DNA of 64,000 bases. Source: Gemmatimonadaceae bacterium (GTDB lineage: Bacteria > Gemmatimonadota > Gemmatimonadetes > Gemmatimonadales > Gemmatimonadaceae). The notes under the pieces were generated by a model, which saw only the letters and a program-made list of their open reading frames with translations, was not told the DNA's origin and did no database searches. Below, piece by piece: positions 4,274 through 16,796 of this stretch. The translations under genes were made by a program, and so were the position numbers. Each line of letters starts with the position of its first letter. Position 1 is the first letter of the stretch. The stretch spans positions 9,037 to 73,036 of the forward strand of contig JACMLX010000187.1 in the NCBI GenBank assembly GCA_014379355.1, in the 5' to 3' direction.

Positions 4274-5514
4274 TTGAGCCGCACACGTGCGGCGGAGGCA
4301 TACGCGGACATGTCGGACAGGATGATGCGGTCACCGACGGTGAGGCCGCCGAGCACTTCGACGCTGTTGGCCGAGTTCCGACCGAGTGTGACGGCGATGC
4401 GGACGGCTTCGCGACCATCCGGCGTGAGTCGGAAGAGACTCGTCTGCCCGCCTGGCACTGCAATCGCCGGGCGGCCCGTGTAGCGCACGTTGGTCAGCTT
4501 TTCGATCTGGATCGTGCCATCGACGCTCAGGTCCGGCACGGCGCCTTGCGGGAGCGCCCCATCGAGCGCGACATCGATCGTCACACTGCCTTGTTGCGCC
4601 GCCGGATCTTTGCGGATGACATGTCCGCGCACGATGCCGTTGCGCGTGTCGACGTTCGTGACCTGCCCGATCTGCACATCCTTGGCCTGCGATTCGGGAA
4701 TGCGAAGTACCGCCTTCAGGCGACCCGGCTGCACGACCTTCGCGAGTGTGGTGCCTTCAGGCACCCATTGCCCGAGCTGCAGCGTCAGGTCCTGCAACAC
4801 ACCCGATTCCGGTGCACGGATTTCGAGCGCGCGAAGACGCGCCTGCTGATTGGCGGCGATGGCACGCAGCTGTGTCACCTGGCCCGCCTGCGTCGCCACC
4901 TGCGCGTCGATCGACTCGCGCATGAGCTGCAGGCGATCCTGCTCGACACGCAGTCGCGTCGTCATTTCGTCGGCCGCGGCGCGACGATTCGCGACTTCGA
5001 ACGTCGCGGCGAGCCGCAACTTCACCAGCGAGTCGACACCGGCCGCTTCCTGCATCGCGCTGAGATGCTGCGTGCGCGCCGTCGCGACGACCCCTTCCTG
5101 CGTGAGCACCCCGCTGCGCAGGGTGGTCTTGAGGGACAGCAATGCACTCTCGGCCTGCCGCACCTGCTGATCCGCCTGCATCGACTGCAATTGCAGGTCG
5201 GGATTCGAGAGCTCGAGCAGCAGATCGCCCGCCTTCACGACCTGTCCCGCCTGCACATGCACGCGTTCGACGCGCGCCGATGCCTGGGCGGTGATCCAGC
5301 GAATCTGCTCGGGCGCCAGCGCGCCGGGCGCGCGCACTTCCCGCACGATGTCGCCCTGACGCACCGAGTCCACCAGAATTGCCGCCCGCTCGATCGTCGG
5401 CAAGGCAGCGTCGAGACGCGAGACCGCGACGATGCCGAGGATCGCCAGCACGACGCCCGCCGCAATCAGCGCCGTGCGACCGTGTCGTTTGGGCGGTGTA
5501 CGAACGATATCCAT
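4270..5514 (-). CDS. HlyD/MacA-family periplasmic adaptor (membrane fusion protein)
   Basis: 414 aa with an N-terminal TM (TALIAAGVVLAILGIVAV), long Q/L/A-rich coiled-coil segments and C-terminal beta-rich segments. It sits between the permease and the ATPase. Confidence 0.85.
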   Translation of the reverse strand: MDIVRTPPKRHGRTALIAAGVVLAILGIVAVSRLDAALPTIERAAILVDSVRQGDIVREVRAPGALAPEQIRWITAQASARVERVHVQAGQVVKAGDLLLELSNPDLQLQSMQADQQVRQAESALLSLKTTLRSGVLTQEGVVATARTQHLSAMQEAAGVDSLVKLRLAATFEVANRRAAADEMTTRLRVEQDRLQLMRESIDAQVATQAGQVTQLRAIAANQQARLRALEIRAPESGVLQDLTLQLGQWVPEGTTLAKVVQPGRLKAVLRIPESQAKDVQIGQVTNVDTRNGIVRGHVIRKDPAAQQGSVTIDVALDGALPQGAVPDLSVDGTIQIEKLTNVRYTGRPAIAVPGGQTSLFRLTPDGREAVRIAVTLGRNSANSVEVLGGLTVGDRIILSDMSAYASAARVRLK

Positions 5515-5556
5515 GATCAGCGCTGTCCGGACCGAGAGTCACACCCGCGATGCGGG

Positions 5557-8058
5557 TCAATCATGTCGCAGCGCCTGCATCGGATCAACCAGCGCTGCAC
5601 GACGGGCCGGGATGAACCCCGCCGCCAGTGCCACGATGGCCAGGCTGACGACTGACAACGAAAACACCGACGCGTCGTAGCCCTCGAGGCCGAACAGAAG
5701 CGCGCGCGCGGCCTTCCCGATGCCGAATGCCGCCGAGACGCCGACCACCGCGCCGATCGCCGTCATCAGTCCGACCTGCTTCATGACCATGCGGCGCACG
5801 CGGGCGGAATTCGCCCCGAGCGCCATCCGCACGCCGATTTCGCGTGTACGCTGTGCCACGCTGAATGCCAGCATGCCGTACAACCCGATGCCCGCCAGCA
5901 GCGTGGCGATGATTGCGAACGCCGCCGACAATATGCTGATCATCCGATCGAGGAACACATTCTCGCGGATCTGCTGCGGCATCGACTTCAGGTCCTCGAC
6001 GGGGATGGTCGGATCGAGCTTCTTCCTCACGCCCGGAATCGCCGCCATCAGCTGCGCCGTCGGCAACGAGGATCGCACGTAGTAGTGCAGCGCACCGATG
6101 CCGTGATCCTGCCGCGCGGCGTAGTAGAACACCGGCGGCACCGTGTCCTTCACGTCACTGTACTTCATGTCCGGCACGACGCCCACGATCTGCACGTTCA
6201 GCGTGTCCGTCGGACCGCCGTCCACCATGAACTTGCCGACGGCGTCGCGTCCGAGGTTGAATTTCTTCGCGAACGCCTCGTTCACGACTGCGACCTTCGC
6301 ACCGCCGAATTCGTCCGATTCCGCGATGTCGCGACCCGCGCGCATCGGCACGCCGAGCATCGTGAAGTAGCCCGGCCCGACCTGATTGAATCGCGAATCG
6401 TTGTCCACATCAGGACCGCTGGCGAATCCCTGCACCTGCACGCCGGATCCCCAGCTCTCGCCGGACAGCAGGGGGACGCGACTCGCCGTCACACCGGTGA
6501 CACCGGGAATCGCCTTCAGCTCCTGCTCGACTCGTGCGAGATAGATGGCGGCACGGATGGTGTCCATCCCGGCGCGCACCGGCGACACCCTGAACGTCGC
6601 CAGATCATTCAGGTTCATGCCGAGGTCCACACGACTCACGTTGCGAAGGCTCTTCAGGAACAGTCCGGCCGAGACGAGGAGCGCCATCGAAAGTGCGATC
6701 TGCACCGTCACGAGCGTGGCGCGGAAGCGCGCCGCGGCCTTGCCACCAGTCAGCTGACCCGCACCCGCACGAATGACGCCGATCAGGTCCGCGCGCGTGC
6801 TGTGCATCGCGGGAAAGAGCCCGAAGATCACGCCCGTCACGAGCGCCAGTGCCGCGGTGAACACGATCACCTGCGGCTCCAGGGCGAACACGATGGTGCC
6901 GGCCGCGTCGGCAGGCATCATCGACGCAATGAAGCTGAGCGTGAGCTTCGCCACGATCAGGCTCACCACGCCGCCGATGGCCGCGAGCAGGATCGATTCA
7001 GTCAGCAGCAGCGACAACAGCTGCTTCCGACTCGCGCCGAGCGCCAGTCGCACACCCATTTCCGCCGATCGCCCTGCGCCGCGAGCCAGAAGGAGATTCG
7101 CAATGTTCGCGCAGGCGATGAGCAGCACGACCAGCGTTACACCCATCAGCAGGTACAGCGGCGACTTCGCCTCGCGGTGAATGCTGCTCTGACCGCGGCG
7201 CCCATCCTCCACCGTCAACGTCTTCGCGCGAAACTGCGTCAGCGTCTGGGCACTCATGTTCTCCTGCAGCGGTACTTCGACATCGTTCAGGATCGGTCGA
7301 TACAAGGCATTCAAGGCCACCGTCGCCTGCGCGATCGTCACACCGGGTTTCCGTCGCCCGAACACGTACATCCAGTACGACCGTCGATTGTCGAAGTTCT
7401 TGAAGCCGACTTCCAGTTCGGCGCGCATCGAGATCGGCACGTAGACCGACGGTTGCGTACCGAGTGTCGTGCCGCTGAACCCCTGCGGCGCCACACCGAT
7501 GACCGTGAACGTCTTGCCATTGATGCGTATCGTCTTGCCAATCGCGCCCGGCGACTCACCGAACGTGTCGCGCCAGAATTCGTACCCGAGAACCACCACG
7601 AAATTCGCACCGATCACCGCATCGTCGGTCGGCGCCAGCAATCGCCCCGCGGCCGGCTGCAATTGCAGCGTCGGGAAGTACGACCCCGACACCATCACTC
7701 CCTGCCCCGTCATCGGCTCGCCGTCGATCGAGAGGCTGGGTCCGAATGTCCGGTGCGCCGCGAGACCGGTCAGCACGGTCTGGGTGCGCTCGAGATCGCG
7801 GAACATCGGATAGCTGAACACCACCTCGCAGCTGCCGGCCTGCGAACATTGCGTCTGACCTGGCTTGGGACCCGGCGCGCCAAGATTGATCAACGCGACC
7901 GGATCCGGCACCGGGAGCGGCCGCAGCAACATCTGGTCGAACAGCGAGTAGATCGCCGAATTCGCACCGATGCCGAGCGCCAGCGACATGACGGCGACGG
8001 CAGTCACGAACGGGGTTTTGAGCAGCATGCGTGCTGCGAGCCGCAAATTGCGTAGCAT
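5557..8058 (-). CDS. duplicated MacB/FtsX-type ABC permease (ADOP-style)
   Basis: Start chosen at MLRNLRLAARMLLKTPFVTAVAVMSLALGIGANSAIYS, a typical N-terminus for this family. There are two FtsX-like modules: LIACANIANLLLARGAGRSAEMGVRLALGASR and LYGMLAFSVAQRTREIGVRMALGANS. The longest ORF extends to 8091. Confidence 0.85.
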   Translation of the reverse strand: MLRNLRLAARMLLKTPFVTAVAVMSLALGIGANSAIYSLFDQMLLRPLPVPDPVALINLGAPGPKPGQTQCSQAGSCEVVFSYPMFRDLERTQTVLTGLAAHRTFGPSLSIDGEPMTGQGVMVSGSYFPTLQLQPAAGRLLAPTDDAVIGANFVVVLGYEFWRDTFGESPGAIGKTIRINGKTFTVIGVAPQGFSGTTLGTQPSVYVPISMRAELEVGFKNFDNRRSYWMYVFGRRKPGVTIAQATVALNALYRPILNDVEVPLQENMSAQTLTQFRAKTLTVEDGRRGQSSIHREAKSPLYLLMGVTLVVLLIACANIANLLLARGAGRSAEMGVRLALGASRKQLLSLLLTESILLAAIGGVVSLIVAKLTLSFIASMMPADAAGTIVFALEPQVIVFTAALALVTGVIFGLFPAMHSTRADLIGVIRAGAGQLTGGKAAARFRATLVTVQIALSMALLVSAGLFLKSLRNVSRVDLGMNLNDLATFRVSPVRAGMDTIRAAIYLARVEQELKAIPGVTGVTASRVPLLSGESWGSGVQVQGFASGPDVDNDSRFNQVGPGYFTMLGVPMRAGRDIAESDEFGGAKVAVVNEAFAKKFNLGRDAVGKFMVDGGPTDTLNVQIVGVVPDMKYSDVKDTVPPVFYYAARQDHGIGALHYYVRSSLPTAQLMAAIPGVRKKLDPTIPVEDLKSMPQQIRENVFLDRMISILSAAFAIIATLLAGIGLYGMLAFSVAQRTREIGVRMALGANSARVRRMVMKQVGLMTAIGAVVGVSAAFGIGKAARALLFGLEGYDASVFSLSVVSLAIVALAAGFIPARRAALVDPMQALRHD

Positions 8059-8177
8059 CTGTCGGATCGGCGGGTGGATGTCGCAGCGCACCCGGATCGG
8101 GGGCCCAGCGGGTCTGACGTAACGGGACCGCGAATGGTTTCTCTCCGGTGCAAATCCGCACCGGGTGCCCCGTCAGC

Positions 8178-9527
8178 TCACGGAAACGGCCGTGGACGCG
8201 GCTGCGGCCACGGCCACGGATCGGTCGCGCTGCGGCCAGCCAGCGAACGCACGGCGGCCTCGCGCACCGATGGATCACTCGAGTCGAGCAGCTCGGTCAG
8301 CATCGCTTCCGAGCGCTCGCCCGTTTCGATCAGCGCGCGGAGCTGCGCCCGGCGCGCCTTCGCATTGCGCTCACGCTTGATCGCGGTCTTGAGCGCCGGC
8401 ACCGCCGCCGGATCGCGAATCTCGCCGAGCGCCCACGCCGCCTTCACGCGGATGTCGTCATCGGCATCGCCGACCGCGAGAATGAGTCCGGCCGGTGCCT
8501 TGCGCGTGTCGATGTTGCCAAGTGCCCACGCCGCGGTGGCACGCACGCGCAGATCGGTATCCTTCGCCAGCACGTCGCCAAGAACATCGGCGGCATCGGC
8601 GTTCCCGAGTTCACCGAGCGCCCACACCGCCATCTCACGCACGTTCCTGTCGCCATCACGCTGCGCAGAAATCTGCAGGCCGTTCACGCTGCTCCTGGCA
8701 TCGATGTTGCCGAGCGCCCACGCACACATCTCGCGCACATGGGCGTCGCTATCGCGACTCAGCACATCGCTGAGATCCGTCGCGGCCGCTTCCGCCTCGA
8801 GATTGCCGAGGGCCCACGCGGCCGTGCGACGCACCGATGCGACCTTGTCCTCCTTCAGCACGCGCAACAGCGCCGGAATCGCACTGGTCGAGTCGAGCTG
8901 TCCGATGGCGCCGATCGCCGCTTCACGCACCGTGGAATCAGCATCGGAGAGCACACCCAGCAACGGACGCAACGCCATGCCGTCTTCCACTCGACCGAGT
9001 GCCCACGCCGCATTGGCACGCACGCCGATCGCGTTGTCGCGCAGCACGGCAATCAGCGCCGGTGTGACCGTCTTCGGTTCGATCAGGCCCAGGCCCAGCG
9101 CCGCAGTCTCACGCACCGTGGCATCGGAATCCGACAATCGTGTCGACAGGCCGCGGGTGGCCAACTCGCCGCCTGATTGACCGAGCACGCGCACGGCCAG
9201 CGCACGCACGCATCGGTCAGTCGATGACACATGCTCGAGCAGCATCGCAACGTCCGCGTCGCCGAGTCGGCGGCTGCGCTCTTCAGTGTCGTCGGTGAGT
9301 TGCACGGCCGGCAGCGGCGTGTGCGGTGCATTCATACCACGTCCCCAACGATTGCCGACCGCGTCCGATGCCAGCGAACACACCATGTCCGGCGCACCAC
9401 GCGCTGCCGCGAGGAGGGCGCGCAGATCATTCGCGATTGCCGCCGGCAAGCGCGCGGCTTCGGCGACCGCATTGGGTGAGCAGGCGATGACCGCGCCGGC
9501 GACGAGTAGTGCAACGCTTCGAACCAT
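8178..9527 (-). CDS. HEAT-repeat (PBS-lyase-like) lipoprotein, paralog of the sensor domain of the adjacent M56 protein
   Basis: Signal peptide with lipobox (LLVAGAVIAC). About 10 repeats at ~31-aa spacing share the core (V/I)R-x2-A-x-WALG(N/E)(I/L). It ends in DPWPWPQPRPRPFP-stop. Confidence 0.8.
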   Translation of the reverse strand: MVRSVALLVAGAVIACSPNAVAEAARLPAAIANDLRALLAAARGAPDMVCSLASDAVGNRWGRGMNAPHTPLPAVQLTDDTEERSRRLGDADVAMLLEHVSSTDRCVRALAVRVLGQSGGELATRGLSTRLSDSDATVRETAALGLGLIEPKTVTPALIAVLRDNAIGVRANAAWALGRVEDGMALRPLLGVLSDADSTVREAAIGAIGQLDSTSAIPALLRVLKEDKVASVRRTAAWALGNLEAEAAATDLSDVLSRDSDAHVREMCAWALGNIDARSSVNGLQISAQRDGDRNVREMAVWALGELGNADAADVLGDVLAKDTDLRVRATAAWALGNIDTRKAPAGLILAVGDADDDIRVKAAWALGEIRDPAAVPALKTAIKRERNAKARRAQLRALIETGERSEAMLTELLDSSDPSVREAAVRSLAGRSATDPWPWPQPRPRPFP

Positions 9528-9553
9528 GGAAACTCCCGCGAGACGTGGTGAGT

Positions 9554-9571
9554 GTGTTGATTTTTCAGCAC
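9554..9571 (-). promoter_or_regulatory. AT-rich motif GTGCTGAAAAATCAACAC (minus strand), a second copy of the blaI-upstream operator half-site
   Basis: It lies about 27 nt upstream of the HEAT lipoprotein start codon. It closely matches both half-sites of the palindrome at 12182-12216 (GTGCTGAATAATCAAC / GTGCTGATTTTTCAAC). Confidence 0.4.
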
Positions 9572-9587
9572 TTCAGGGCAAAGGAAG

Positions 9588-9604
9588 AGCGCGAACGTCG
9601 CGCT
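9588..9604 (-). terminator. short GC hairpin (AGCGCGA-ACG-TCGCGCT) after the M56 gene; weak terminator/attenuator candidate
   Basis: A 7-bp perfect stem lies 35 nt downstream of the M56 stop. On the minus strand it is followed by CTTCCTTTGCC, which is only moderately T-rich. Confidence 0.3.
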
Positions 9605-9638
9605 GTTCCGTCGTGCACGTGCGGTAGAACTCGACTGC

Positions 9639-11759
9639 TCAGGGATACGGGCGCGGACGCGGTCGTGGCTGCGGCCACGGCTCGTCACTACGACCGGCCA
9701 GTGATCGAATGGCGAGCGCGCGCGCGGCCGCATCCGACCCTTCGATGATGCGCTGCAACGGAGCGACGGCGCGTTCACCCATCACGCTGATCGCGCGCAC
9801 CATCGCCCATTTGGTGTCGGCATCCGTTTCCTTCGACAGCGCCGTCTCGAGCGCGGCAGCGGCATCGCCATCCTCGATCTCGAACAGTGCCCACGCCACC
9901 GTGGCGCGCACTCGCGCATCACGATCGGTCAGGGCACTGATCAGCGCCGCCGGTGCTCGGCGCGGGTTGGAATTGCCCAGGCCCCACGCGCCGAGTTCGC
10001 GCACCGCTGCGTCGTCATCCGTGAGCGCCGACGTCAGCGCCGAGACGACACCCGGAGTACTTCCCTCACCGCCATCGCCAAGTGCCCAGACGGCCGTCTT
10101 GCGCACTGCCTTGTTGCGGTCGTCGCGAATGACGTCACCGAGGGTGCGCGCGACACGCGCATTGTCCGCGCCGTCAGCGAGCGCCCATGCGGCCATCTCA
10201 CGCACCTCGGCACTGACATCCTGTCGCACCGCGTAGAGCAATGCGTCCCGCGCCGCGTCGTTGTCGACGAAATCGTTCAATCCCCACGCCGCGGTGCGCC
10301 GCAACGATGCGGATGTGTCCGTGCGGAGAATGCGGGCCAGCACGCTGGCGCGCGCGCTGCTGTCACCCGCGGTCCTGGCCGACGGCAGCGAGCGGAGCAA
10401 GCCATCACCCTGCACACCCGTCGCCAGTGCGATCACCGGCTCCGGCGATGCCTGCGCCTGCGCTGTCGCCACGGCGACCGCCCCAGGTTTCGCCGACGGT
10501 GCCGGAGCCGGCATCGGTCCGCCCCGGCGACGCTCGTCAGTGAACTCCGACTTCACCGTCATGGTGTCGACGCGCGTGTCGTCGCGACGCACCGTGTCCA
10601 GCACGGCCACGTCATTCGAGCGCGACGGTGCGGGGCGTTCCAACTGCGGCGCGCTGGTCACGCGAGGCACAGCCGATCCGGTGACGATCGCGAACATCAT
10701 CACACCACCTGCCAGCGTACTCGCCTGCACGCGCGTCGGTGAGCTGCGCGAGAGATGCGGGTCGAGGATCGCGAGCATGCGCCCCTCGAACTCCGACCGC
10801 GTCGCCATCGCCATCGCGACCGACGGAGTGCCGTGATTGCGCACCGATGTCACGATATCGAGCAGATGTTCCGCGTAGTCGCTGGCGCGCGTGCCGCAGC
10901 TCAGCGCGAGATCATCGCAGGCGCGCTCGCTTTCGGAACGCAGTCGGCGTGCAGCCATCCACGCCAGCGGATGAAACCAGTACAGCGCACAGACGATGCG
11001 GCCGAGTGTGTGGCCGACGATATCGCGGCGGCGGATATGTGCCAGCTCGTGCAGCAGCACGGCGGTGCGGCGCTCGTCGTTCCACTTCTCGCAGTCAGCC
11101 GGCATCACGATCGTCGGCGTGCGCAGCCCGCAGGCGAAGGGCATGGTCACGTTGTCCGCGCGCAGCAGGACCGGCACTTCGGTGAGCTCGAGCCGATCCG
11201 CGATATCCATCATCGGGCCCTGCCACGCGACGCTGTCGAGTTTCGTGGCGCCGCGCACGATGCGGCGGACGGTCGACGCACCATAGCCAAGCCAGCCGAG
11301 AATGCCGACGGCAACGGCGGCCCACACCAGTGCGATGATGGTCGTGAGTGGCAATGGTTTGCGCTCGGTGACGTCGGCAGAGGACGCCGCGCTCATCGCT
11401 GCGGACGCCGGCGTGGTCGCGGTGGGCGTCGCGGCGTCTGACGCACGCGTCGTCCGGGAATCACTCGCATCCGTCGGCATACCACCTGATTCCAGCGCAC
11501 CGACGGGAATCACCACCGCTGTCGCGCCCCATGTTGCCGGCAGCAACTGCAATCGGATCGGGCTCCACAGCGCGAGCGCGGGAATCACCAGCATCGCGAA
11601 CAGCGACGCGACCCATACCAGGTGACGCGACGTGGCCGATGCGCGCTGCATCAGCGTGGTCAGCGCGAGCGCGACCAGCAGGACCGCGGTCGCCTTCAGA
11701 ACGATGAGCAGCACCGGCATCAAGGCGATTGCGCGAGCATCGAGGATCGAGGTATCCAT
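9639..11759 (-). CDS. M56 family (BlaR1/MecR1-like) membrane metalloprotease signal transducer with C-terminal HEAT-repeat domain
   Basis: N-terminal TM helices and the zinc motif HELAHIRRRD. A fourth TM (GGVMMFAIVTGSAV) is followed by an Ala/Pro-rich linker and about 7 HEAT-like repeats (VREMAAWALADG, VRKTAVWALGDG, VRATVAWALFEI). It ends in EPWPQPRPRPRPYP-stop. No penicillin-binding S-x-x-K sensor domain is visible. Confidence 0.85.
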   Translation of the reverse strand: MDTSILDARAIALMPVLLIVLKATAVLLVALALTTLMQRASATSRHLVWVASLFAMLVIPALALWSPIRLQLLPATWGATAVVIPVGALESGGMPTDASDSRTTRASDAATPTATTPASAAMSAASSADVTERKPLPLTTIIALVWAAVAVGILGWLGYGASTVRRIVRGATKLDSVAWQGPMMDIADRLELTEVPVLLRADNVTMPFACGLRTPTIVMPADCEKWNDERRTAVLLHELAHIRRRDIVGHTLGRIVCALYWFHPLAWMAARRLRSESERACDDLALSCGTRASDYAEHLLDIVTSVRNHGTPSVAMAMATRSEFEGRMLAILDPHLSRSSPTRVQASTLAGGVMMFAIVTGSAVPRVTSAPQLERPAPSRSNDVAVLDTVRRDDTRVDTMTVKSEFTDERRRGGPMPAPAPSAKPGAVAVATAQAQASPEPVIALATGVQGDGLLRSLPSARTAGDSSARASVLARILRTDTSASLRRTAAWGLNDFVDNDAARDALLYAVRQDVSAEVREMAAWALADGADNARVARTLGDVIRDDRNKAVRKTAVWALGDGGEGSTPGVVSALTSALTDDDAAVRELGAWGLGNSNPRRAPAALISALTDRDARVRATVAWALFEIEDGDAAAALETALSKETDADTKWAMVRAISVMGERAVAPLQRIIEGSDAAARALAIRSLAGRSDEPWPQPRPRPRPYP

Positions 11760-11762
11760 GAC

Positions 11763-12158
11763 CTATCTCCCGCTCTTGCGAGCGCCGGCAATGCGGGCGC
11801 GCATCGCCTGCAGTTCCGTGTCGGTGAGTGTCGTGTCCGACATGCGGAGCAGCGCGGTCACCGCCTGCTCGGTGGAACCGGCGAAGTACGTCCGCACCAC
11901 GTGATCGAGCACATCGACCTGCGCCTGCTCGGTCGGTGCGGCCGGGAAATACACGTATCGCGGTCCGTCCTCCCGAAAGGCGATCAGCGCCTTCTCGCCG
12001 AGGATCCGGAGAATCGATCGCACCGCCGAATACGTCGGCGGATCAGCGAGCTCGGCCATGATTTCCGCAACGGTGGACTCACCGCGCCGGTGCAGGATGT
12101 CCATCACCTGCCGCTCTCGGCGGGTGAGATCTTCGGTGGTCTTGGGCGACAGGGACAT
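11763..12158 (-). CDS. BlaI/MecI/CopY family transcriptional repressor
   Basis: 131 aa. The winged helix LTRRERQVMDILHRRGESTVAEIMAEL...YSAVRSILRILGEKALI and a C-terminal dimerisation helix are typical of the family. The gene lies 3 nt upstream of the M56 gene. Confidence 0.9.
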   Translation of the reverse strand: MSLSPKTTEDLTRRERQVMDILHRRGESTVAEIMAELADPPTYSAVRSILRILGEKALIAFREDGPRYVYFPAAPTEQAQVDVLDHVVRTYFAGSTEQAVTALLRMSDTTLTDTELQAMRARIAGARKSGR

Positions 12159-12181: not shown

Positions 12182-12233
12182 GTGCTGATTTTTCAACTGT
12201 GTTGATTATTCAGCACGTCCCCTCCGATGTCAA
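12182..12233 (-). promoter_or_regulatory. candidate sigma70-type promoter (TTGACA-N17-AATAAT, minus strand) overlapped by imperfect palindrome GTGCTGA-N21-TCAGCAC (candidate BlaI operator)
   Basis: The minus strand reads TTGACATCGGAGGGGACGTGCTGAATAATCAACACAGTTGAAAAATCAGCAC. The -35 is at 12228-12233, the -10 at 12205-12210 and the palindrome at 12182-12216. It ends 24 nt before the blaI-like start and forms an AT-rich island in a GC-rich genome. Confidence 0.5.
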
Positions 12234-12511
12234 GGCCCCCTCGGCACGCTGCACACGCGGGTCCCCGACCCGACTCGGCGCTCGACCAGCCCCTCGCTGG
12301 CCAGCTGTGCGATCGCCGCCTCGACCGTGTTCCGAGAGACCCGCAGTTCCTTCGCCAGCGCGCGCGACGCCGGCAGCCGATCGCCGACACGCAGCTCTCC
12401 GCGCATGATGGCGTCTCGCAACTGGTCGCCGATCTGTCGATAGAGCGGCGTCTCCGCCAGGGCGCCCCTTCGATGCACGCGAACACGCGACCTCACTCGC
12501 GCGTCCTCCAC
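12230..12511 (-). CDS. GntR-family winged-HTH domain only (short stand-alone regulator or gene remnant)
   Basis: PLYRQIGDQLRDAIMRGELRVGDRLPASRALAKELRVSRNTVEAAIAQLASEGLVERRVGSGTRV is a complete GntR DNA-binding domain. The ORF stops right after it, with no effector/oligomerisation domain. Its 5' end overlaps the carboxylesterase 3' end. Confidence 0.5.
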   Translation of the reverse strand: MEDARVRSRVRVHRRGALAETPLYRQIGDQLRDAIMRGELRVGDRLPASRALAKELRVSRNTVEAAIAQLASEGLVERRVGSGTRVCSVPRGP

Positions 12512-14073
12512 AGCTTGCGCAGCACCGGCTCCACGAGGCCACAGACTGATGCGCCGAGTCCGGTGCGCGCGCCGATCGTGGTGCCGAGCTCCTGATACGC
12601 GTCATCGGATGCGCGATAGGCAGGCCAGAGCGGCAGCGACGGTCCATTCGGATCACCCGTCGCGGCGAATCGGAGCCAGTAGCCGACCATCGTATCACTC
12701 AGTGTCGAATCTGGCGCTTCGCGTTTGCGTGCAGGGTCACGTGCATTGAACACGTAGTCGATGTCGGCCGCGTGATACGCGCCCATCCCTTCCTCACCCG
12801 GTGGGACGCGCGAGAACAGGTACAGGTACGACGGTGTCGCGACCCTGGTCATGGCGCGTGCCGTGAGACGCGTCTGACACGTGAAGTAGAAGTCCGTCAC
12901 GAGACGACGCGCCGCCAGATCGACATCGCTGTCTGTCGGCGCGGGGTACAGCGCGAGCATCGAATCCCTCGAGGCGCCGAACGTGTCGCCGACCCACGTA
13001 CGGTAGCCAGTGAGCGTGCGCGCGAAGGCAGGCATTGCATCACGCAGTGACGACATCTCGAGCGCCGTGCTGCCGAGGATCAGCGGTACCGGCATCTGCT
13101 TTCCGCGATCGAAGACGCGCGCGGTCATTTCGCGCAGCACGAGGCCATCGACGATCGGCTGGAAGATGCCACTCTGCAGGAAGACGCTTTGCGCCTGCAT
13201 CACGGTCTCGGCCGGCACTGCGCGCAACGCCTTCAGCACCTCGTCATCACGTGCCGTGCTGTCCGGTGCTACGCCCAGCGATCGCGCGAAGATCGTGCCG
13301 AACCGCTCGGCGGTGGTGAGTGACGCGAGGCCATCCATCGGCGCCCCGCTCTGTGGAATCGCCCGCTGGAACAGTCCCTTCGCGAGCGGCGACGCCATCA
13401 GGTGCACGATGTTGTTCGCGCCGGCGGATTGGCCATACACGGTCACGCGCGTCGAATCACCACCGAATTCGGCGATGTTGCGCTGCACCCATCCCAATGC
13501 GGAGAGAATGTCGAGCAGTGCGTAGTTGCCCGATGCATGCGCCCGCCCTTCGCGTGAGAGCGCCGGATGCGCGAAGAATCCCATCACGCCGACGCGGTAG
13601 TTGATGCTCACGAGCACCACGCCTCGGCGAGCCAGTGTCGTGCCGTCGTAGTACGTCCGGCCGGATGTCCCGGCGATGTTCGATCCGCCGTGAATCCACA
13701 CGATCACGGGCCGCGGTGCGGAGTCACGCGACGGATCGGTGGTCCAGACGTTGAGCGTGAGACAATCCTCGCTCACATCGCCACGGACCTCTCCGTCGAG
13801 CGACACGGGCTGCATGCAGGCGTGGCCAAACTGCGATGCATCATGGGTGCGACCCGGCACCGACCGATACCGCTGCGTCGGTTTCCAGCGAAACGCCCCG
13901 ACCGGGGGCGCGGCGTACGGAATCCCCTTGAACGCCGCCACCGCCGGCGCCGGCGCCGCGCTCCATTGCCCCTCGACCCGTTCTCCCTCGAGTGACACTG
14001 TGGGGCGCGACTGCGCATGACCGCACATCGGGATGATCGCAAGAAATTTGATCAGTCGTCGTACGGTCAGCAC
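12493..14073 (-). CDS. type-B carboxylesterase (para-nitrobenzyl esterase-like), secreted
   Basis: 526 aa with a signal peptide, FKGIPYAAPPVG, EDCLTLNVW, the oxyanion motif HGGS and the nucleophile elbow YGQSAGA. Confidence 0.9.
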   Translation of the reverse strand: MLTVRRLIKFLAIIPMCGHAQSRPTVSLEGERVEGQWSAAPAPAVAAFKGIPYAAPPVGAFRWKPTQRYRSVPGRTHDASQFGHACMQPVSLDGEVRGDVSEDCLTLNVWTTDPSRDSAPRPVIVWIHGGSNIAGTSGRTYYDGTTLARRGVVLVSINYRVGVMGFFAHPALSREGRAHASGNYALLDILSALGWVQRNIAEFGGDSTRVTVYGQSAGANNIVHLMASPLAKGLFQRAIPQSGAPMDGLASLTTAERFGTIFARSLGVAPDSTARDDEVLKALRAVPAETVMQAQSVFLQSGIFQPIVDGLVLREMTARVFDRGKQMPVPLILGSTALEMSSLRDAMPAFARTLTGYRTWVGDTFGASRDSMLALYPAPTDSDVDLAARRLVTDFYFTCQTRLTARAMTRVATPSYLYLFSRVPPGEEGMGAYHAADIDYVFNARDPARKREAPDSTLSDTMVGYWLRFAATGDPNGPSLPLWPAYRASDDAYQELGTTIGARTGLGASVCGLVEPVLRKLWRTRE

Positions 14074-14208: not shown

Positions 14209-15528
14209 CTAGCGCGCGTTCGGAATCAGCGATTGATACACCAGATTCACGAACCGCGCACCGACGTCGCTCGAATTCGGGAGCTGCTGCATCATGAACA
14301 CGATCACCAATCGCTCTTTCGGATCGACCGCATAGCTGGAGCCGTACGCGCCGCCCCATCCGTACGAACCGACCGAGCGGAACCCATCGGCACCGAGCCG
14401 ATCGACAGTGGAGAAACCGAGCCCGAAGCCACGACCGTCTGTGGAGAACAGGGTGCCGGTCTGGTTGCTGGACATGACGTCCACCGTGCGCGGTGCGAGG
14501 ATGCGCGCACCCTCGAGCACACCACCGTTCAGCATCATCTGCAGGAACCGTGCGTAGTCGCGCGCCGTGGACACGAGGCCGGCGCCACCGGAGAAGCTGA
14601 CGCGTGGACCGTCGGCGTAGTGCCCCTGGCCGCGCGCGCCATCGGGCGCCCGCACGCTGTGTCGCAACGAGTCACTCATGTAGACCGTTGTGAACCGCGC
14701 GCGTTTCGCGTCGGGCACGTAGAAATACGTGTCGTTCATCCGCAGGGGCGCAGTGATTCGGGCCCGGAAGAATTCGTCGAGCGCCAGACCCGACACCCGT
14801 TCCACCACGCAGCCGAGTATGTCCGTGTTGTAGCCGTAAACGAATGCCTCTCCCGGCTGCTGCACGAAGGGCAGCGACGCGAGGCGATCGATGGTGGTGC
14901 AGATCGGTTCGGACTTGTCGGCGAAATACCATCCCCATCCAGCGGCCGGCCCGAGATCCTTCGCGCGATACTGTGCGGCCACGTGTGCGTCGGTGCCATA
15001 TGAAGCGCCCGACGTGTGCGTGAGCAGGTCCCGGATCGTGACCTGCCGTTTCGCCGCGACTGCCGACGGCGCACCTGTCGTCTGCACTGTGGTCGTCGCG
15101 AAAGCCGGGATGAAGCGGCTCACGCGATCGTCGAGCGACAGTTTCCCCTGCTCCACCAGCGACAGGATCGCCACGCTCGTCAACGCCTTCGACTGCGACG
15201 CGATGCGGAAGATGGCGTCCGAGGTCATGCGACGATTCGATTCGCGATCGGCATACCCCACGGCGCGTTCGTACATCACTTTCCCGTCGCGAAACACGAG
15301 CGCCACCGCGCCCATGATGGCGTTGTCGGTCACCGCCCCATCCAGCAGCGAGTCGATGCGCGCCAGGCGTGCGGCGGACACACCCGGCATGCTCGCCGCG
15401 CCTGGGGTACGTGACACCGGCGCGGCAAAGCCGGCTTGCGCATGCAGGGACGGCGTCGCGACCAGCATATTCCCCAGCGCGACCACGAGTCCGCGCCACA
15501 ACGACCGTGAGTAGTTTGAAGGAGTCAT
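14209..15528 (-). CDS. beta-lactamase-fold serine hydrolase (class C / family VIII esterase-like), secreted
   Basis: Start taken at MTPSNYSRSLWRGLVVALGNMLVATPSLHAQ (signal peptide). It carries the S-x-x-K motif ASQSKA and a Y-x-N motif (YGYN). The longer track ORF (to 15873) is an upstream extension without family features. Confidence 0.85.
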   Translation of the reverse strand: MTPSNYSRSLWRGLVVALGNMLVATPSLHAQAGFAAPVSRTPGAASMPGVSAARLARIDSLLDGAVTDNAIMGAVALVFRDGKVMYERAVGYADRESNRRMTSDAIFRIASQSKALTSVAILSLVEQGKLSLDDRVSRFIPAFATTTVQTTGAPSAVAAKRQVTIRDLLTHTSGASYGTDAHVAAQYRAKDLGPAAGWGWYFADKSEPICTTIDRLASLPFVQQPGEAFVYGYNTDILGCVVERVSGLALDEFFRARITAPLRMNDTYFYVPDAKRARFTTVYMSDSLRHSVRAPDGARGQGHYADGPRVSFSGGAGLVSTARDYARFLQMMLNGGVLEGARILAPRTVDVMSSNQTGTLFSTDGRGFGLGFSTVDRLGADGFRSVGSYGWGGAYGSSYAVDPKERLVIVFMMQQLPNSSDVGARFVNLVYQSLIPNAR

Positions 15529-15574
15529 GCCGGCCACTATGCCGGCGGGGACCGTCTTCAGCAAGGCGTCGACG

Positions 15575-16796
15575 ATGCGCTGGTTGCCTCTCGCGTGGTG
15601 TGGCATCGCGGCATGCTCCGCTCCACACCGGGCGCCGCTCGTCAATCCGCACGCAGCGGAGCCGATCGGCACCGTGCGCGAGATGTACGATGGACGACTG
15701 ACACCCGAACTCGCGGCCCAGACGTTCCGCAACATCGATCGACTCTTCCCGTCGCGCGTCGTCGCGCGCGGCACCAGCACGACGCCGCTGCCGCACGCGG
15801 CGCGCCCGATCGCTGCCGTCACCTGCAGCTCGCGTGGCCGGAACGTCACGCTCGACGAATACATGCGCGTCAATCGCGTCAGCGGACTGCTCCTGCTGCA
15901 GGACGGCCAGATCGCACTGGAGCGCTATGCGCTGGGCAACACGGAATCCACGCACTGGATGTCGATGTCCATGGCGAAAATCGGTGACCTCGACGCTGAT
16001 CGGTATCGCACTGCGTGACGGTGCGATCCGCAGCCTCGATGATTCCGTCACGCGATACGTACCGGCACTGGCAGGGAGCGCGTATGACGGTGTGACCGTG
16101 CGCAACATCCTCACGATGGCGTCCGGTGTCCGCTGGAACGAGACCTACACCGATCCTACGTCGGATCGACGACGCCTGCTGGACGTGCAGATCTCGCAGG
16201 CGCCCGGTGCTGGACTGACGCTGATGGCGGCGTTGCCGCGCGCTGCCGCACCCGGGTCCGTCTTCAACTACAGCACCGGCGAAACTCTCGTGGCCGGAGA
16301 ACTCGTGCGCGGTGCGGTCGGCACGTCGCTGTCTGCATTCCTCAGCGATAAGATCTGGCGACGCATCGGCATGGAAAGCGATGCGACCTGGTGGCTCGAT
16401 TCACCCGACGGCCACGAGATCGGTGGCAGCGGGATCACCGCCACATTGCGTGACTATGGGCGCTTCGGCCTGTACATCATGCGCGGCGGCGTGATCGACG
16501 GCGACAGCACGCTTCCTGCCGGATGGATTGCCGAAGCCGGCTCGCCGAAAACACTGAGCTCCGGCAAGCGCGAAGCGTACGGCTACATGTGGTGGCCGGT
16601 CGAGAACGCGCTCGCCGGCAGCATTCACGAGGGCGCGTTCTCCGCGGCGGGAATCTTCGGGCAGTGGCTGTACGTCAATCCGAAGCAGCGGGTGGTGATC
16701 GTGCAGTGGAGCGCGCAGACTGCACCATCGGGCGGTGACGTCGTGAATCCCGAAGATTGTTTCGGTGCATTGACCATGGCGGCCATTGCGCACTGA
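15575..16796 (+). pseudogene. beta-lactamase-fold serine hydrolase lipoprotein, interrupted by a +1 frameshift at 15977-15980
   Basis: Track ORF 15527..16018 carries the N-terminus: MRWLPLAWCGIAAC lipobox ... HWMSMSMAK. Track ORF 15834..16796 continues in the next frame with SVTSTLIGIALRDG...NYSTGE...YGYMWW. The two join cleanly if one A is removed from GCGAAAATCGG. Confidence 0.75.

What the first reader, a model, noticed from the sequence alone, without database searches (positions are those of the whole stretch)
8178..12158. BlaI / M56 (BlaR1-like) signalling module whose sensor is a periplasmic HEAT-repeat array, followed by a free lipoprotein paralog of that sensor
Seen in sequence:
- A BlaI/MecI-type repressor gene (11763-12158) is followed 3 nt later by an M56 protease (HELAH zinc motif, 4 TM segments).
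- In the M56 protein, the extracytoplasmic C-terminus is not a penicillin-binding (S-x-x-K) domain. It is an Ala/Pro-rich linker plus about 7 HEAT-like repeats with the core VR-x2-A-x-WALG.
- The next gene (8178-9527) encodes a lipobox-bearing protein made of about 10 of the same repeats.
- The last ~35 residues of both proteins align: SD..(V/A)R..A(V/I)RSLAGRS..PWPQPRPRP.P.

Established: BlaR1/MecR1 sense beta-lactams through a C-terminal PBP-like domain and then inactivate BlaI/MecI.

Inference: this is a BlaR1-type proteolytic switch rewired to an unknown, probably non-beta-lactam, envelope signal. The free paralog may act as co-receptor, decoy or ligand shuttle. I do not know of a characterised system with this sensor-plus-paralog layout.
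Basis: partly seen in the sequence, partly recalled or inferred. Interest (0 to 1): 0.7.

Follow-up and report, generated by a model that had tools for sequence, protein, structure and literature searches.

The report
BlaI/M56 switch with HEAT-repeat sensor
A soil bacterium (Gemmatimonadaceae) carries a relative of the staphylococcal penicillin-sensing BlaR1/BlaI switch whose outside sensor is a HEAT-repeat protein-binding coil, not a penicillin-binding domain, and whose only conserved target gene encodes a secreted copy of that coil; the module recurs across the phylum and nobody has studied it.

Summary
Three co-directional minus-strand genes encode:
- a BlaI-type repressor (11763-12158);
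- an M56 gluzincin membrane protease (9639-11759) with a 100-residue disordered linker, 7 HEAT repeats and no penicillin-binding features;
- an exported 11-repeat HEAT protein (8178-9527), whose last 7 repeats and (P-X)6-P tail are collinear with the sensor domain (43% identity).

New findings:
- An 18-bp palindrome, GTGYTGA-N4-TCARCAC, occurs only three times in 64 kb. Two copies overlap the blaI promoter and one lies 27 nt upstream of the free HEAT gene.
- In 80 Gemmatimonadota genomes, gene order, palindrome positions and a terminator-like hairpin after the M56 gene are conserved. No other neighbouring gene is conserved.
- More distant M56-HEAT subfamilies also carry a downstream exported HEAT gene, with the same two-cysteine N-terminal cap.
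- The lipobox is clade-specific (11 of 88 paralogs).

Best reading: a BlaR1-like proteolytic derepression circuit for an unknown, non-beta-lactam periplasmic ligand. Its output is the secreted sensor paralog, most likely a feedback decoy or modulator. No function has been tested. It is a new variant of a known kind, and no paper on it turned up in five full-text searches.

The parts
12205..12233 (-). Promoter of the blaI-M56 operon: TTGACA, 17 nt, AATAAT (11 of 12 matches to consensus)
   Evidence: A TTGACA at the same relative position is conserved in 69 related loci. The -10 hexamer lies inside operator O1.
12199..12216 (.). Operator O1, GTGCTGAATAATCAACAC as read on the minus strand; an 18-bp palindrome that overlaps the -10 hexamer
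   Evidence: 0 mismatches to GTGYTGAWWWWTCARCAC, with 3 sites in 64 kb against 0.01 expected. The position is conserved in the related loci.
12182..12199 (.). Operator O2, CAGTTGAAAAATCAGCAC; a tandem copy offset 17 bp from O1, lying between the -10 hexamer and the blaI ATG
   Evidence: 2 mismatches. The 17-bp spacing of the two sites is seen in 55 of 59 loci that have two sites.
11763..12158 (-). BlaI/MecI/CopY-family winged-helix repressor, 131 aa, with no cysteine
   Evidence: Pfam PF03965 at 2.8e-22. Orthologues 65-94% identical sit directly upstream of M56 in 76 loci.
10665..11759 (-). M56 gluzincin membrane-protease domain (aa 1-365): 4 TM helices, HELAH at 11037-11051, ERACD at 10914-10928
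   Evidence: Pfam PF05569 at 4e-36. BlaR1 cryo-EM chains 8EXS/8EXP match by sequence (E = 1.5e-3 and 2.6e-3), and 8EXQ/8EXP match by fold. The motif residues are invariant in 111 orthologues.
10365..10664 (-). Linker of about 100 residues (aa 366-465), rich in Ala, Pro and charged residues and predicted disordered
   Evidence: AF2 pLDDT is below 50 for residues 379-463. Length and sequence vary among orthologues.
9699..10364 (-). Periplasmic sensor domain (aa 466-687): 7 PBS-type HEAT repeats with a Trp ladder (AAWALG)
   Evidence: AF2 pLDDT is above 90 with 7 helix pairs. AlphaRep chains match at TM 0.86 and 33% identity and by sequence down to E = 3.8e-32. W492, W525, W558, W592 and W623 are invariant. 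The Trp aligns with alphaRep variable position 26 on the concave binding face.
9642..9680 (-). C-terminal (P-X)6-P tail of the sensor, PWPQPRPRPRPYP
   Evidence: AF2 pLDDT is about 57, so the tail is not docked in the monomer model.
9583..9609 (-). Terminator-like GC-rich hairpin (GGAACAGCGCGACGTTCGCGCTCTTCC) followed by a T-rich run, between the M56 stop and operator O3
   Evidence: A comparable hairpin with a T-rich tail is found in 55 of 74 related loci.
9554..9571 (.). Operator O3, GTGCTGAAAAATCAACAC as read on the minus strand; it ends 27 nt upstream of the free HEAT gene's ATG
   Evidence: 0 mismatches. A site at this position is present in 73-74 related loci, and the left half AGTGCTGA is about 100% conserved.
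8178..9527 (-). Exported free HEAT protein, 449 aa. It comprises a signal peptide (9459-9527; lipobox VIAC followed by AVA|E), an N-cap with C50 (9261-9449), 11 HEAT repeats (8238-9260, with C106 in repeat 1), and the tail PWPWPQPRPRPFP (8181-8219)
   Evidence: Pfam HEAT_2 at 2.9e-79. AF2 mean pLDDT is 83.8. Repeats 5-11 plus the tail are collinear with the sensor domain. C50 and C106 are invariant in 88 orthologues. The gene is always directly downstream of M56-HEAT.

Best explanation
This is a three-gene, self-contained BlaR1/BlaI-type proteolytic derepression circuit that does not sense beta-lactams.

Resting state (inferred). BlaI dimers occupy two tandem 18-bp palindromes over the -10 region and the start of the blaI-M56 operon. 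They also occupy a third palindrome in front of the next gene.

Sensing (inferred). The M56 protein has the BlaR1 membrane and gluzincin chassis, with its catalytic site facing the cytoplasm. After TM4 it carries a flexible linker of about 100 residues and a 7-repeat HEAT solenoid in the periplasm. A ladder of invariant tryptophans on the concave face suggests that it binds an extended ligand, which could be a peptide, a glycan or a segment of an envelope protein.

Signal transmission (inferred by analogy with BlaR1). Ligand binding activates the protease. The protease cleaves BlaI, and both transcription units are derepressed.

Output (shown: operator position, terminator-like hairpin, synteny). 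The only conserved output is an exported HEAT protein. Its C-terminal 7 repeats and tail are an ancient paralogue of the sensor domain.

Role of the output (my commitment, inferred). The exported protein can be made in excess of the membrane sensor. It binds the same ligand, or the same partner, as the sensor. In doing so it neutralises or sequesters that ligand and resets the switch. This is the logic of BlaR1 paired with a beta-lactamase, with a binding decoy taking the place of a hydrolase.
For: Family membership and catalytic motifs.

No penicillin-binding features.

Periplasmic location:
- BlaR1 topology (PMC9834060).
- The paralogue's signal peptide and invariant Cys pair.

Operator:
- 3 sites in 64 kb against 0.01 expected, all at the two 5' regions.
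- 121 hits upstream of blaI and 72 in the M56-to-paralog intergenic region across 956 kb of 80 loci; most of the 17 other hits are in loci where my blaI ORF filter failed.
- The -10 hexamer lies inside O1.
- In the distant relative L085 the free HEAT gene has its own TTGACA-17-AATATT promoter with two tandem operators.

Separate transcription unit: a terminator-like hairpin precedes O3 in 55 of 74 loci.

Conserved genes:
- Only blaI, M56-HEAT and the paralog are conserved neighbours.
- The trio also appears in an independent annotation.
- It recurs in the distant subfamilies represented by P0294, P0295, P0277 and P0355.

Ancient paralogy:
- 43% identity and collinear.
- Repeat-by-repeat correspondence.
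- Sensor-versus-paralog identity is 42.7% within a genome and 42.5% between genomes, and the pairwise-identity matrices correlate at rho = 0.79.

Shared binding face: the Trp ladder and the R and E-M residues at alphaRep positions 22-23 of the first two matched repeats are conserved in both proteins.

Precedent for a BlaI-repressed homologue of the sensor domain: 10.1101/630020 and PMC9045261.
Against: - Nothing has been tested experimentally. The ligand is unknown.
- No convincing sigma-70 -35/-10 pair is found in front of the free HEAT gene in this window. Read-through transcription or another sigma factor cannot be excluded.
- At matched repeats 3-5 the concave-face residues differ between sensor and paralog. 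Consensus identity is 0.40 at face positions and 0.54 at framework positions. This weakens the 'same ligand' idea.
- In distant subfamilies the free HEAT protein is short (238-303 aa), lacks the tail, and is translationally coupled to the M56 gene. That pattern fits a stoichiometric partner better than a decoy made in excess.
- The 100-residue disordered linker makes BlaR1-style rigid allosteric coupling uncertain.
- BlaI may have distal targets that could not be surveyed. One relative, L004, has an operator in front of a PF00144 hydrolase gene.
Confidence: 0.55

Rival explanations
1. The circuit is the same, but the exported HEAT protein binds the sensor itself, acting as an inhibitor or co-sensor in the manner of CpxP or RseB. 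It holds M56-HEAT off. The signal is then the titration, misfolding (of the disulfide-stapled cap) or degradation of the exported protein, not capture of a free ligand.
For: - Translational coupling or an overlapping stop/start with the M56 gene in distant subfamilies.
- A unique two-cysteine N-cap (with a GWGWRG or GNRWG motif), conserved across all subfamilies and absent from the sensor.
- Concave-face residues of repeats 3-5 have diverged from those of the sensor yet are well conserved within the paralog family.
- AlphaRep proteins can pair through their concave faces (PMC3754942).
Against: - In this subfamily the gene lies behind a terminator-like hairpin and has its own operator. This uncouples its dosage from that of the sensor.
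- No interaction prediction could be run.
- The AF2 monomer models give no docking information for the tails.
Confidence: 0.25
2. The exported HEAT protein is a ligand-delivering co-receptor, like a periplasmic binding protein that presents ligand to a sensor. On this reading it is a positive element of the circuit.
For: The two genes are conserved together, and the Trp ladder and tail are shared.
Against: Placing a required co-receptor under the same repressor, behind a terminator, would make induction slow and bistable. No precedent of this kind turned up among the BlaR1-type papers read here.
Confidence: 0.08
3. The palindromes are not BlaI operators. They could be sites for another regulator, or RNA hairpins, and the free HEAT gene would simply be co-located.
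For: There are no binding data. The known BlaI, MecI and CopY boxes are of the TACA/TGTA type (from my own knowledge) and differ from TGYTGA-N4-TCARCA.
Against: - The site overlaps the -10 hexamer of the repressor's own promoter, which is the classical autoregulatory arrangement.
- In the intergenic copy the right half-site degenerates while the left half stays about 100% conserved. That argues against a conserved RNA stem.
- The half-sites change together with the BlaI lineage: TGCTGG/CCAGCA, TGCTAC/GTAGCA and TGCTAA/TTAGCA in distant systems.
- Perfect sites found elsewhere in metagenomes are chance hits inside coding DNA, except where they lie next to blaI.
Confidence: 0.07
4. It is after all a beta-lactam or cell-wall-fragment sensing system, with the HEAT domain recognising such compounds indirectly.
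For: - PF00144 beta-lactamase-family genes lie 2-4.6 kb upstream in this clade.
- In relative L004 a secreted PF00144 gene next to blaI has a perfect-core operator.
Against: - There is no acyl-enzyme sensor: no SxxK motif and no OXA or PBP fold.
- NCBIfam blaR1_generic scores 81 bits against a cutoff of 400.
- The PF00144 genes are not conserved neighbours outside the closest clade, and in the window they have no operator.
- PF00144 is a broad esterase and peptidase family.
Confidence: 0.05

Closest known systems
BlaR1/BlaI and MecR1/MecI of Staphylococcus aureus and Bacillus licheniformis (PMC9834060)
   Same: - A winged-helix PF03965 repressor gene lies adjacent to an M56 gene and is co-transcribed with it.
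- The membrane chassis has 4 TM helices.
- The cytoplasmic gluzincin site has HExxH and ExxxD.
- The sensor domain follows TM4 on the outside.
- A palindromic operator overlaps the autoregulated promoter.
- A separate repressor-controlled effector gene lies next door.
   Different: - The sensor is a 7-repeat HEAT solenoid on a 100-residue disordered linker, not an OXA-like acyl-enzyme domain.
- The operator is TGYTGA-N4-TCARCA, not the TACA/TGTA type.
- The gene order is co-directional, blaI then M56, with a terminator-like hairpin and the effector downstream. It is not a divergon.
- The effector is a binding protein with no recognisable catalytic domain.
- The host is a diderm.
C. difficile BlaRI controlling the class D beta-lactamase BlaD (10.1101/630020); OXA-domain family including BlaR (PMC9045261)
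   Same: The BlaI-repressed, exported effector belongs to the same fold family as the sensor domain of the M56 protein. Sensor and effector therefore recognise the same ligand class.
   Different: In C. difficile the shared fold is a serine hydrolase that destroys the ligand. Here it is a HEAT solenoid, which can only bind. The paralogy here is also much closer: 43% identity, collinear, and with a shared tail.
Sensor-less 'atypical' BlaR/BlaI systems: M. tuberculosis, M. abscessus, P. aeruginosa PvmSR (10.64898/2026.08.03.742534)
   Same: An M56 plus BlaI pair that is not dedicated to beta-lactam resistance, with an unknown signal.
   Different: Those M56 proteins lack any extracytoplasmic sensor domain. 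This one has a large, conserved sensor domain plus a dedicated exported partner.
AlphaRep / PBS-lyase-type HEAT repeats (MTH187-derived artificial binders; PMC3754942)
   Same: The 31-residue repeat is the same, at 33-37% identity and TM 0.86. The concave face is formed by positions 18, 19, 22, 23, 26 and 30.
   Different: This is a natural, exported, membrane-tethered protein. Position 26 is fixed as Trp in most repeats. It also has the added (P-X)6-P tail and, in the free form, a disulfide-stapled N-cap.
Envelope-stress accessory proteins CpxP (Cpx) and RseB (sigma-E); comparison from my own knowledge
   Same: A periplasmic protein encoded beside the sensor and under the control of the pathway it modulates.
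   Different: The folds are unrelated and the transduction mechanisms differ. The analogy concerns circuit logic only and was not tested here.

Membership tests
BlaI/MecI/CopY repressors (PF03965) | Winged-helix Penicillinase_R domain above the Pfam gathering score | tested here: met
   79.7 bits against a cutoff of 22.6, covering 113 of 115 model positions.
BlaI/MecI/CopY repressors (PF03965) | CopY-type C-terminal CxCx4CxC metal site, which would make it a copper sensor | tested here: not met
   The protein has no cysteine (sequence). TIGR02698 scores 37 bits against a cutoff of 122.
BlaI/MecI/CopY repressors (PF03965) | Binds a palindromic operator at its own promoter | not testable with these tools
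   Conserved palindromes overlap the -10 hexamer. The binding itself is inferred.
Peptidase M56 (BlaR1 N-terminal domain) | PF05569 match, 4 TM helices, HExxH and ExxxD gluzincin motifs | tested here: met
   - 125 bits against a cutoff of 31.
- HELAH at 237-241 and ERACD at 278-282, both invariant in 111 orthologues.
- Helices at 14-36, 42-65, 138-170 and 343-362.
- BlaR1 chains 8EXQ/8EXP match by fold, and 8EXS/8EXP match by sequence.
BlaR1/MecR1 beta-lactam sensor-transducers (NF000326, NF033109) | C-terminal OXA/PBP-like acylatable sensor domain with the S-x-x-K motif | tested here: not met
   - No SxxK motif anywhere in the protein.
- No transpeptidase or beta-lactamase Pfam hit.
- blaR1_generic scores 81 bits against 400, and MecR1 scores 26 against 1200.
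- The C-terminal fold is alphaRep/HEAT.
BlaR1/MecR1 beta-lactam sensor-transducers | Cleaves its cognate BlaI on induction | not testable with these tools
   The only indication is that the region aligned to the S. aureus N101-F102 site (EQAVTALLRMSD) is at least 90% conserved.
PBS-lyase-type HEAT repeats (PF13646, PF03130) | Tandem helix-turn-helix repeats of about 31 residues forming an alpha-solenoid | tested here: met
   Pfam hits. AF2 gives 7 and 11 helix pairs at pLDDT above 90. AlphaRep chains match at TM 0.86.
Bacterial lipoproteins | Lipobox [LVI][ASTVI][GAS]C at the end of a signal peptide, conserved in orthologues | tested here: inconclusive
   VIAC at residues 13-16 fits the pattern, but an AVA|E signal-peptidase-I-like site follows it. 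Only 11 of 88 orthologues have a lipobox-like motif. No dedicated predictor was available.
Exported (Sec) periplasmic protein | N-terminal signal peptide; cysteines conserved in pairs | tested here: met
   N-termini examined in A3 and the distant free HEAT proteins are hydrophobic (Kyte-Doolittle for the window protein; the rest read by eye). C50 and C106 are invariant, and 68 of 88 orthologues have exactly 2 Cys.

The most novel reading that the evidence does not exclude
The module may be a closed protein-to-protein envelope surveillance loop and not a small-molecule sensor.

On this reading, the exported HEAT protein is stapled by a disulfide and carries the same W/R-rich (P-X)6-P tail as the sensor. 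It is both the ligand or antagonist of the M56-HEAT receptor and the receptor's only product.

The circuit would then measure the cell's own capacity for export, oxidative folding or periplasmic proteostasis, or contact with an outer-envelope partner reached through the 100-residue linker. It would be a CpxP-like or RseB-like stress pathway built on a BlaR1 protease chassis.

A corollary follows. The sensor is a natural alphaRep-type scaffold, so it would be a template for programmable transmembrane receptors.
Probability: 0.2. Interest if true: 0.75.

Novelty: new variant of a known kind. Interest (0 to 1): 0.6.

Why it matters
- BlaR1/BlaI is the textbook example of antibiotic sensing by regulated proteolysis. 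This locus shows the same membrane-protease and repressor chassis joined to a generic protein-binding solenoid, with a secreted copy of that solenoid as its output.
- The arrangement is conserved across many Gemmatimonadota, a major and little-studied soil phylum. The top 120 protein clusters, 80 species-level genomes and several subfamilies all share it.
- It defines a testable regulon: an 18-bp operator, two promoter regions and three genes. It also points to an unknown envelope signal.
- The sensor is 33-37% identical to the engineered alphaRep binder scaffold. It therefore suggests a route to designable transmembrane biosensors that convert binding outside the cell into de-repression inside.

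Tried and rejected
1. Regulon discovery by scanning metagenome contigs with the perfect operator. Of the 80 loci kept, most were chance hits in low-GC DNA or inside coding regions, for example ECF sigma and ParA-like ORFs. Only 5 sat next to blaI-M56 genes, and no new target emerged.
2. A sigma-70 promoter for the free HEAT gene. The scanner found none. Manual inspection of 73 aligned intergenic regions gave only weak candidates. A clear promoter was seen only in the distant locus L085.
3. Sequence search of BlaI against the PDB found no hit at E <= 0.01.
4. Exact-sequence look-up of the window's M56 protein found nothing on record. P0023 was used instead.
5. Testing 'same ligand' by comparing concave-face residues of sensor and paralog was inconclusive. 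The Trp ladder and the first two repeats are shared, while repeats 3-5 have diverged.
6. Gene conversion as the cause of the shared tail and domain was rejected. Sensor-versus-paralog identity is the same within and between genomes.
7. ADOP permease and HlyD genes as part of the module was rejected. They are adjacent only in the closest relatives and lie at varying positions elsewhere.
8. The CopY-like metal-sensor idea was rejected, because the repressor has no cysteine.
9. Anti-phage defence was rejected. Only generic HEAT similarity was found in PADLOC.
10. Rfam and tRNA scans of the window found nothing.
11. AlphaFold-Multimer modelling of sensor plus paralog was not available. The monomer models leave both tails at low confidence.

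Full report
**1. What is there**

The window is about 66% G+C. The exact M56 protein is on record as 'MAG: HEAT repeat domain-containing protein [Gemmatimonadaceae bacterium]'.

Three co-directional minus-strand ORFs occupy the finding:
- 11763-12158, 131 aa;
- 9639-11759, 706 aa, starting 3 nt after the first ORF's stop (TAG-GTC-ATG);
- 8178-9527, 449 aa, after a 111-nt spacer.

Pfam calls them Penicillinase_R (2.8e-22), Peptidase_M56 (4e-36, residues 16-330) plus HEAT_2, HEAT_EZ and HEAT_PBS (residues ~470-690), and HEAT_2 (2.9e-79, 7 stretches). NCBIfam's beta-lactam-sensor models fall far below their cutoffs: blaR1_generic scores 81 against 400, and MecR1 scores 26 against 1200.

The M56 protein has these features:
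- HELAH at 237-241 and ERACD (ExxxD) at 278-282;
- four hydrophobic helices;
- no S-x-x-K motif anywhere.

**2. Structure**

The AF2 model built on 111 orthologues (mean pLDDT 76.5) has a confident membrane and protease domain (residues 14-362). Residues 379-463 are a disordered linker. Residues 466-687 form seven helix pairs at pLDDT above 90. The C-terminal tail is at low confidence.

Foldseek against the PDB matches the C-terminal domain to alphaRep HEAT-like binders (TM 0.86, 33% identity) and to armadillo and importin-alpha proteins. The N-terminal domain matches the S. aureus BlaR1 cryo-EM structures 8EXQ and 8EXP. No penicillin-binding fold appears among the hits listed. A sequence search gives the same partners.

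The free protein (mean pLDDT 83.8) has 11 helix pairs at residues 90-430. These are preceded by a two-helix cap and followed by a low-confidence tail. It again matches alphaRep chains at 34-37% identity.

In alphaRep proteins the variable positions 18, 19, 22, 23, 26 and 30 form the concave binding face (PMC3754942). The residue between 'AA' and 'ALG', position 26, is an invariant Trp in five sensor repeats and six paralog repeats. Both proteins therefore display a Trp ladder on the presumed binding face.

**3. Paralogy**

The sensor domain (466-691) aligns without rearrangement to residues 212-433 of the free protein, at 43% identity and E = 4e-40. The seven sensor repeats correspond one to one with paralog repeats 5-11. 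This includes the atypical last two repeats.

Both proteins end in a 13-residue alternating motif:
- sensor family: P-W-P-x-P-W-P-x-P-R-P-x-P;
- paralog family: P-W-P-W-P-W-P-R-P-R-P-F-P;
- in this window: PWPQPRPRPRPYP and PWPWPQPRPRPFP.

Across 62 genomes, sensor-to-paralog identity is 42.7% within a genome and 42.5% between genomes. The two pairwise-identity matrices correlate at rho = 0.79. The duplication is therefore old, both copies are inherited together, and there is no ongoing gene conversion.

The free protein additionally has four more repeats and an N-terminal cap. Its two cysteines, C50 and C106, are invariant; 68 of 88 orthologues have exactly two Cys. The sensor's HEAT domain has no Cys in 108 of 111 orthologues.

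**4. Location**

By homology to BlaR1, the catalytic site faces the cytosol and the domain after TM4 is extracellular (PMC9834060). The short TM1-TM2 loop carries two Arg.

Independent support comes from the paralogous free protein, which has an N-terminal signal peptide and a conserved Cys pair.

The lipobox V-I-A-C in this protein is followed by an A-V-A|E site. Lipobox-like motifs occur in only 11 of 88 orthologues. The family trait is therefore 'exported', and 'lipoprotein' is at best a trait of this clade.

**5.

The palindrome GTGYTGA-N4-TCARCAC occurs three times in the 64-kb window, allowing up to 2 or up to 3 mismatches. The chance expectation is 0.01 and 0.19 respectively.
- Two copies, 17 bp apart (12199-12216 and 12182-12199), lie between a TTGACA-17-AATAAT promoter and the blaI ATG. 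The promoter is at 12233-12205 and matches 11 of 12 consensus positions. Its -10 hexamer lies inside the first palindrome.
- The third copy (9554-9571) ends 27 nt upstream of the free HEAT gene's ATG. It sits just after a GC-rich hairpin with a T-rich tail (9583-9609) that follows the M56 stop codon.

**6. Conservation**

Homologue search. It gave 2518 hits at E <= 1e-5. Of the top 120, 119 carry PF05569 plus HEAT Pfams at 40-79% identity; the exception, P0021, is a 438-aa fragment with HEAT hits only. The named ones are all Gemmatimonadota MAGs.

Genome scan. A scan of one genome per species found 295 stretches encoding a relative. The best 80 loci are all Gemmatimonadota apart from three records titled only 'bacterium'.

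Gene order in those 80 loci:
- blaI lies directly upstream, with a typical gap of 2-8 nt.
- A free HEAT gene of about 440-560 aa (as longest-ORF calls) with the PWPWPWPRPRPFP tail lies directly downstream. This holds in every locus that has enough downstream DNA.
- Clustering of all flanking ORFs finds no other gene shared by more than 15 loci, once opposite-strand and alternate-frame shadow ORFs are set aside.

Operator positions across the 80 loci:
- The operator pattern (up to 3 mismatches) gives 121 hits upstream of blaI and 72 in the M56-to-paralog spacer, across 956 kb.
- Most of the 17 other hits fall in loci where my blaI ORF filter failed.
- Two upstream sites are spaced 17 bp apart in 55 of 59 loci.
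- The left half AGTGCTGA of the intergenic site is about 100% conserved.
- A hairpin with a T-rich tail precedes that site in 55 of 74 loci.

An independent annotation of a relative shows the same trio.

**7. The wider family**

An exhaustive profile-free search found a broader M56-HEAT superfamily of 650-1140 aa with more repeats (about 8-14 counted in the sequences fetched). Some members have no tail. Others have different (P-X)n tails, for example GWPDPRPRPRPQPQPRPRP or PWPWPWPMPIVR. One member is annotated as Rhodothermia.

I sampled six neighbourhoods:
- Four have BlaI, M56-HEAT and a downstream exported HEAT gene. These are P0294 (free protein 258 aa), P0295 (238 aa, stop/start overlap), P0277 (303 aa, overlapping) and P0355 (529 aa).
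- Two lack the free HEAT gene (P0349 and P0388). P0349 is annotated Rhodothermia, and P0388 has Bacteroidota-type neighbours (DUF4835, Por_Secre_tail).

All of these free proteins share the signal peptide and the two-Cys cap. The cap has the pattern ARGA-P--C ... GWGWRG or GNRWG ... D--CVR.

In L085 the free HEAT gene has its own TTGACA-17-AATATT promoter, with two tandem operators (ATGCTGAATATTCAGCAG) across the -10 hexamer. This is the same design as the blaI promoter.

Operator half-sites drift with lineage: TGCTGG/CCAGCA, TGCTAC/GTAGCA and TGCTAA/TTAGCA. This is what would be expected of cognate repressor sites.

**8. Mechanism**

Shown:
- the domain content and catalytic motifs;
- the absence of penicillin-binding features;
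- the exported nature of the paralog;
- the conserved palindromes at both 5' regions;
- the terminator-like element between the two units;
- the fact that the trio is the only conserved gene set.

Inferred from family knowledge (PMC9834060). BlaI represses from the palindromes. An event at the periplasmic HEAT domain activates the cytoplasmic gluzincin site. The protease cleaves BlaI and both units are derepressed.

The BlaI region aligned to the S. aureus N101/F102 cleavage site (EQAVTALLRMSD) is at least 90% conserved.

Inference about the output. The exported paralog is the system's product, and it shares the sensor's Trp ladder, its first two face motifs and its tail. I therefore favour a competitor or decoy that binds what the sensor binds and resets the switch.

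The closest precedent in logic is BlaRI controlling a class D beta-lactamase in C. difficile. There the effector belongs to the same domain family as the BlaR sensor.

The main rival is a protein that binds the sensor directly, in the manner of CpxP or RseB. It is favoured by three observations: translational coupling in distant subfamilies, the conserved disulfide cap, and the diverged face residues of repeats 3-5.

The nature of the signal is unknown. The long disordered linker would allow the HEAT domain to reach across the periplasm.

**9. Comparison and novelty**

The repressor and the protease domain are members of their families. The protein is not a BlaR1/MecR1 beta-lactam sensor, because that defining feature was tested and not met.

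Sensor-less atypical BlaR/BlaI pairs are known in M. tuberculosis, M. abscessus and P. aeruginosa (PvmSR). Five full-text searches found no paper on an M56-HEAT fusion, a periplasmic HEAT sensor or the PWPWP tail. Databases label these proteins only as 'HEAT repeat domain-containing protein', 'M56 family metallopeptidase' or 'beta-lactamase regulating signal transducer'.

I therefore rate it a new variant of a known kind. It is widespread and well defined at the sequence level, and it is functionally untested.

**10. Limits**

- No interaction modelling, genome-wide operator scan or dedicated signal-peptide predictor was available.
- The promoter of the free HEAT gene in this window is unresolved.
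- The tail's function is unexplained.
- One relative (L004) has a perfect-core operator in front of a secreted PF00144 hydrolase gene next to blaI. The regulon may therefore be larger in some genomes.

Noticed in passing
L004:5306-5321 and the gene starting near 5360 (ORF call 5305-6486): In one close relative, a secreted PF00144 'beta-lactamase family' serine hydrolase gene sits directly upstream of blaI. A perfect-core operator, TGCTGAAATATCAGCA, lies 38 nt before its ATG (55 nt from the start of the site). In that genome the BlaI regulon probably has a fourth member.
   Followed up: partly
window 14209-15873 (-) and 15834-16796 (+): Two PF00144 beta-lactamase-family serine hydrolase genes lie 2-4.6 kb upstream of blaI. 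Homologues occupy similar positions in L001, L002, L004 and L005, and a further bl1 homologue lies on the opposite strand in L035; they are not conserved neighbours in the wider family. There is no operator near them in the window.
   Followed up: partly
window 12230-12511 (-): A 93-aa ORF consists of a GntR helix-turn-helix domain only. It appears to be a truncated MocR-type regulator, because the intact 510-aa GntR-plus-aminotransferase gene is present at L004:2634-4166. Its stop codon lies inside the -35 hexamer of the blaI promoter, and its 5' end overlaps the carboxylesterase gene at 12493-14073.
   Followed up: partly
window 4270-8091 (-): An ADOP-family duplicated FtsX/MacB permease (5557-8091, TIGR03434 at 804 bits) and an HlyD-type adaptor (4270-5514) follow the free HEAT gene, 86 nt downstream. 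ADOP genes also flank the module in L001 and L002 (downstream) and in L082 (upstream). Their position is not conserved and they have no operator.
   Followed up: partly
L021:327-2933 and 7 other loci: A second M56 protein of median ~780 aa (868 aa in L021), whose C-terminal half has no Pfam match, lies upstream of the BlaI/M56-HEAT module in 8 loci. This suggests that M56 sensors with other unknown extracytoplasmic domains are common in these genomes.
   Followed up: no
L036:10912-13662 and 13 other loci; L085:6093-8084: A gene of about 880-920 aa encoding CBM9 plus DUF5916 domains follows the free HEAT gene directly, or after one gene as in L085, in a minority of loci (14 of 80). A distant subfamily locus also has it. 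The link, if any, is unknown.
   Followed up: no
L085:3353-4942; P0292, P0294, P0302, P0343 C-termini: The alternating Pro tail recurs in variant forms in other M56-HEAT subfamilies and their partners: PMPMPMPMPMPRPFPR, GWPDPQPQPQPKPQPRPKPQP and NPNPRPNPRPRPRPRPRP. Other subfamilies have no tail at all. The tail is therefore a recurrent but dispensable add-on.
   Followed up: partly
L109:4406-4423 and L159:3949-3966: In the metagenome scan, the same perfect palindrome sits immediately upstream of blaI genes paired with M56 genes that gave no HEAT match. The operator type may therefore be shared by related BlaI/M56 pairs with other sensors.
   Followed up: no
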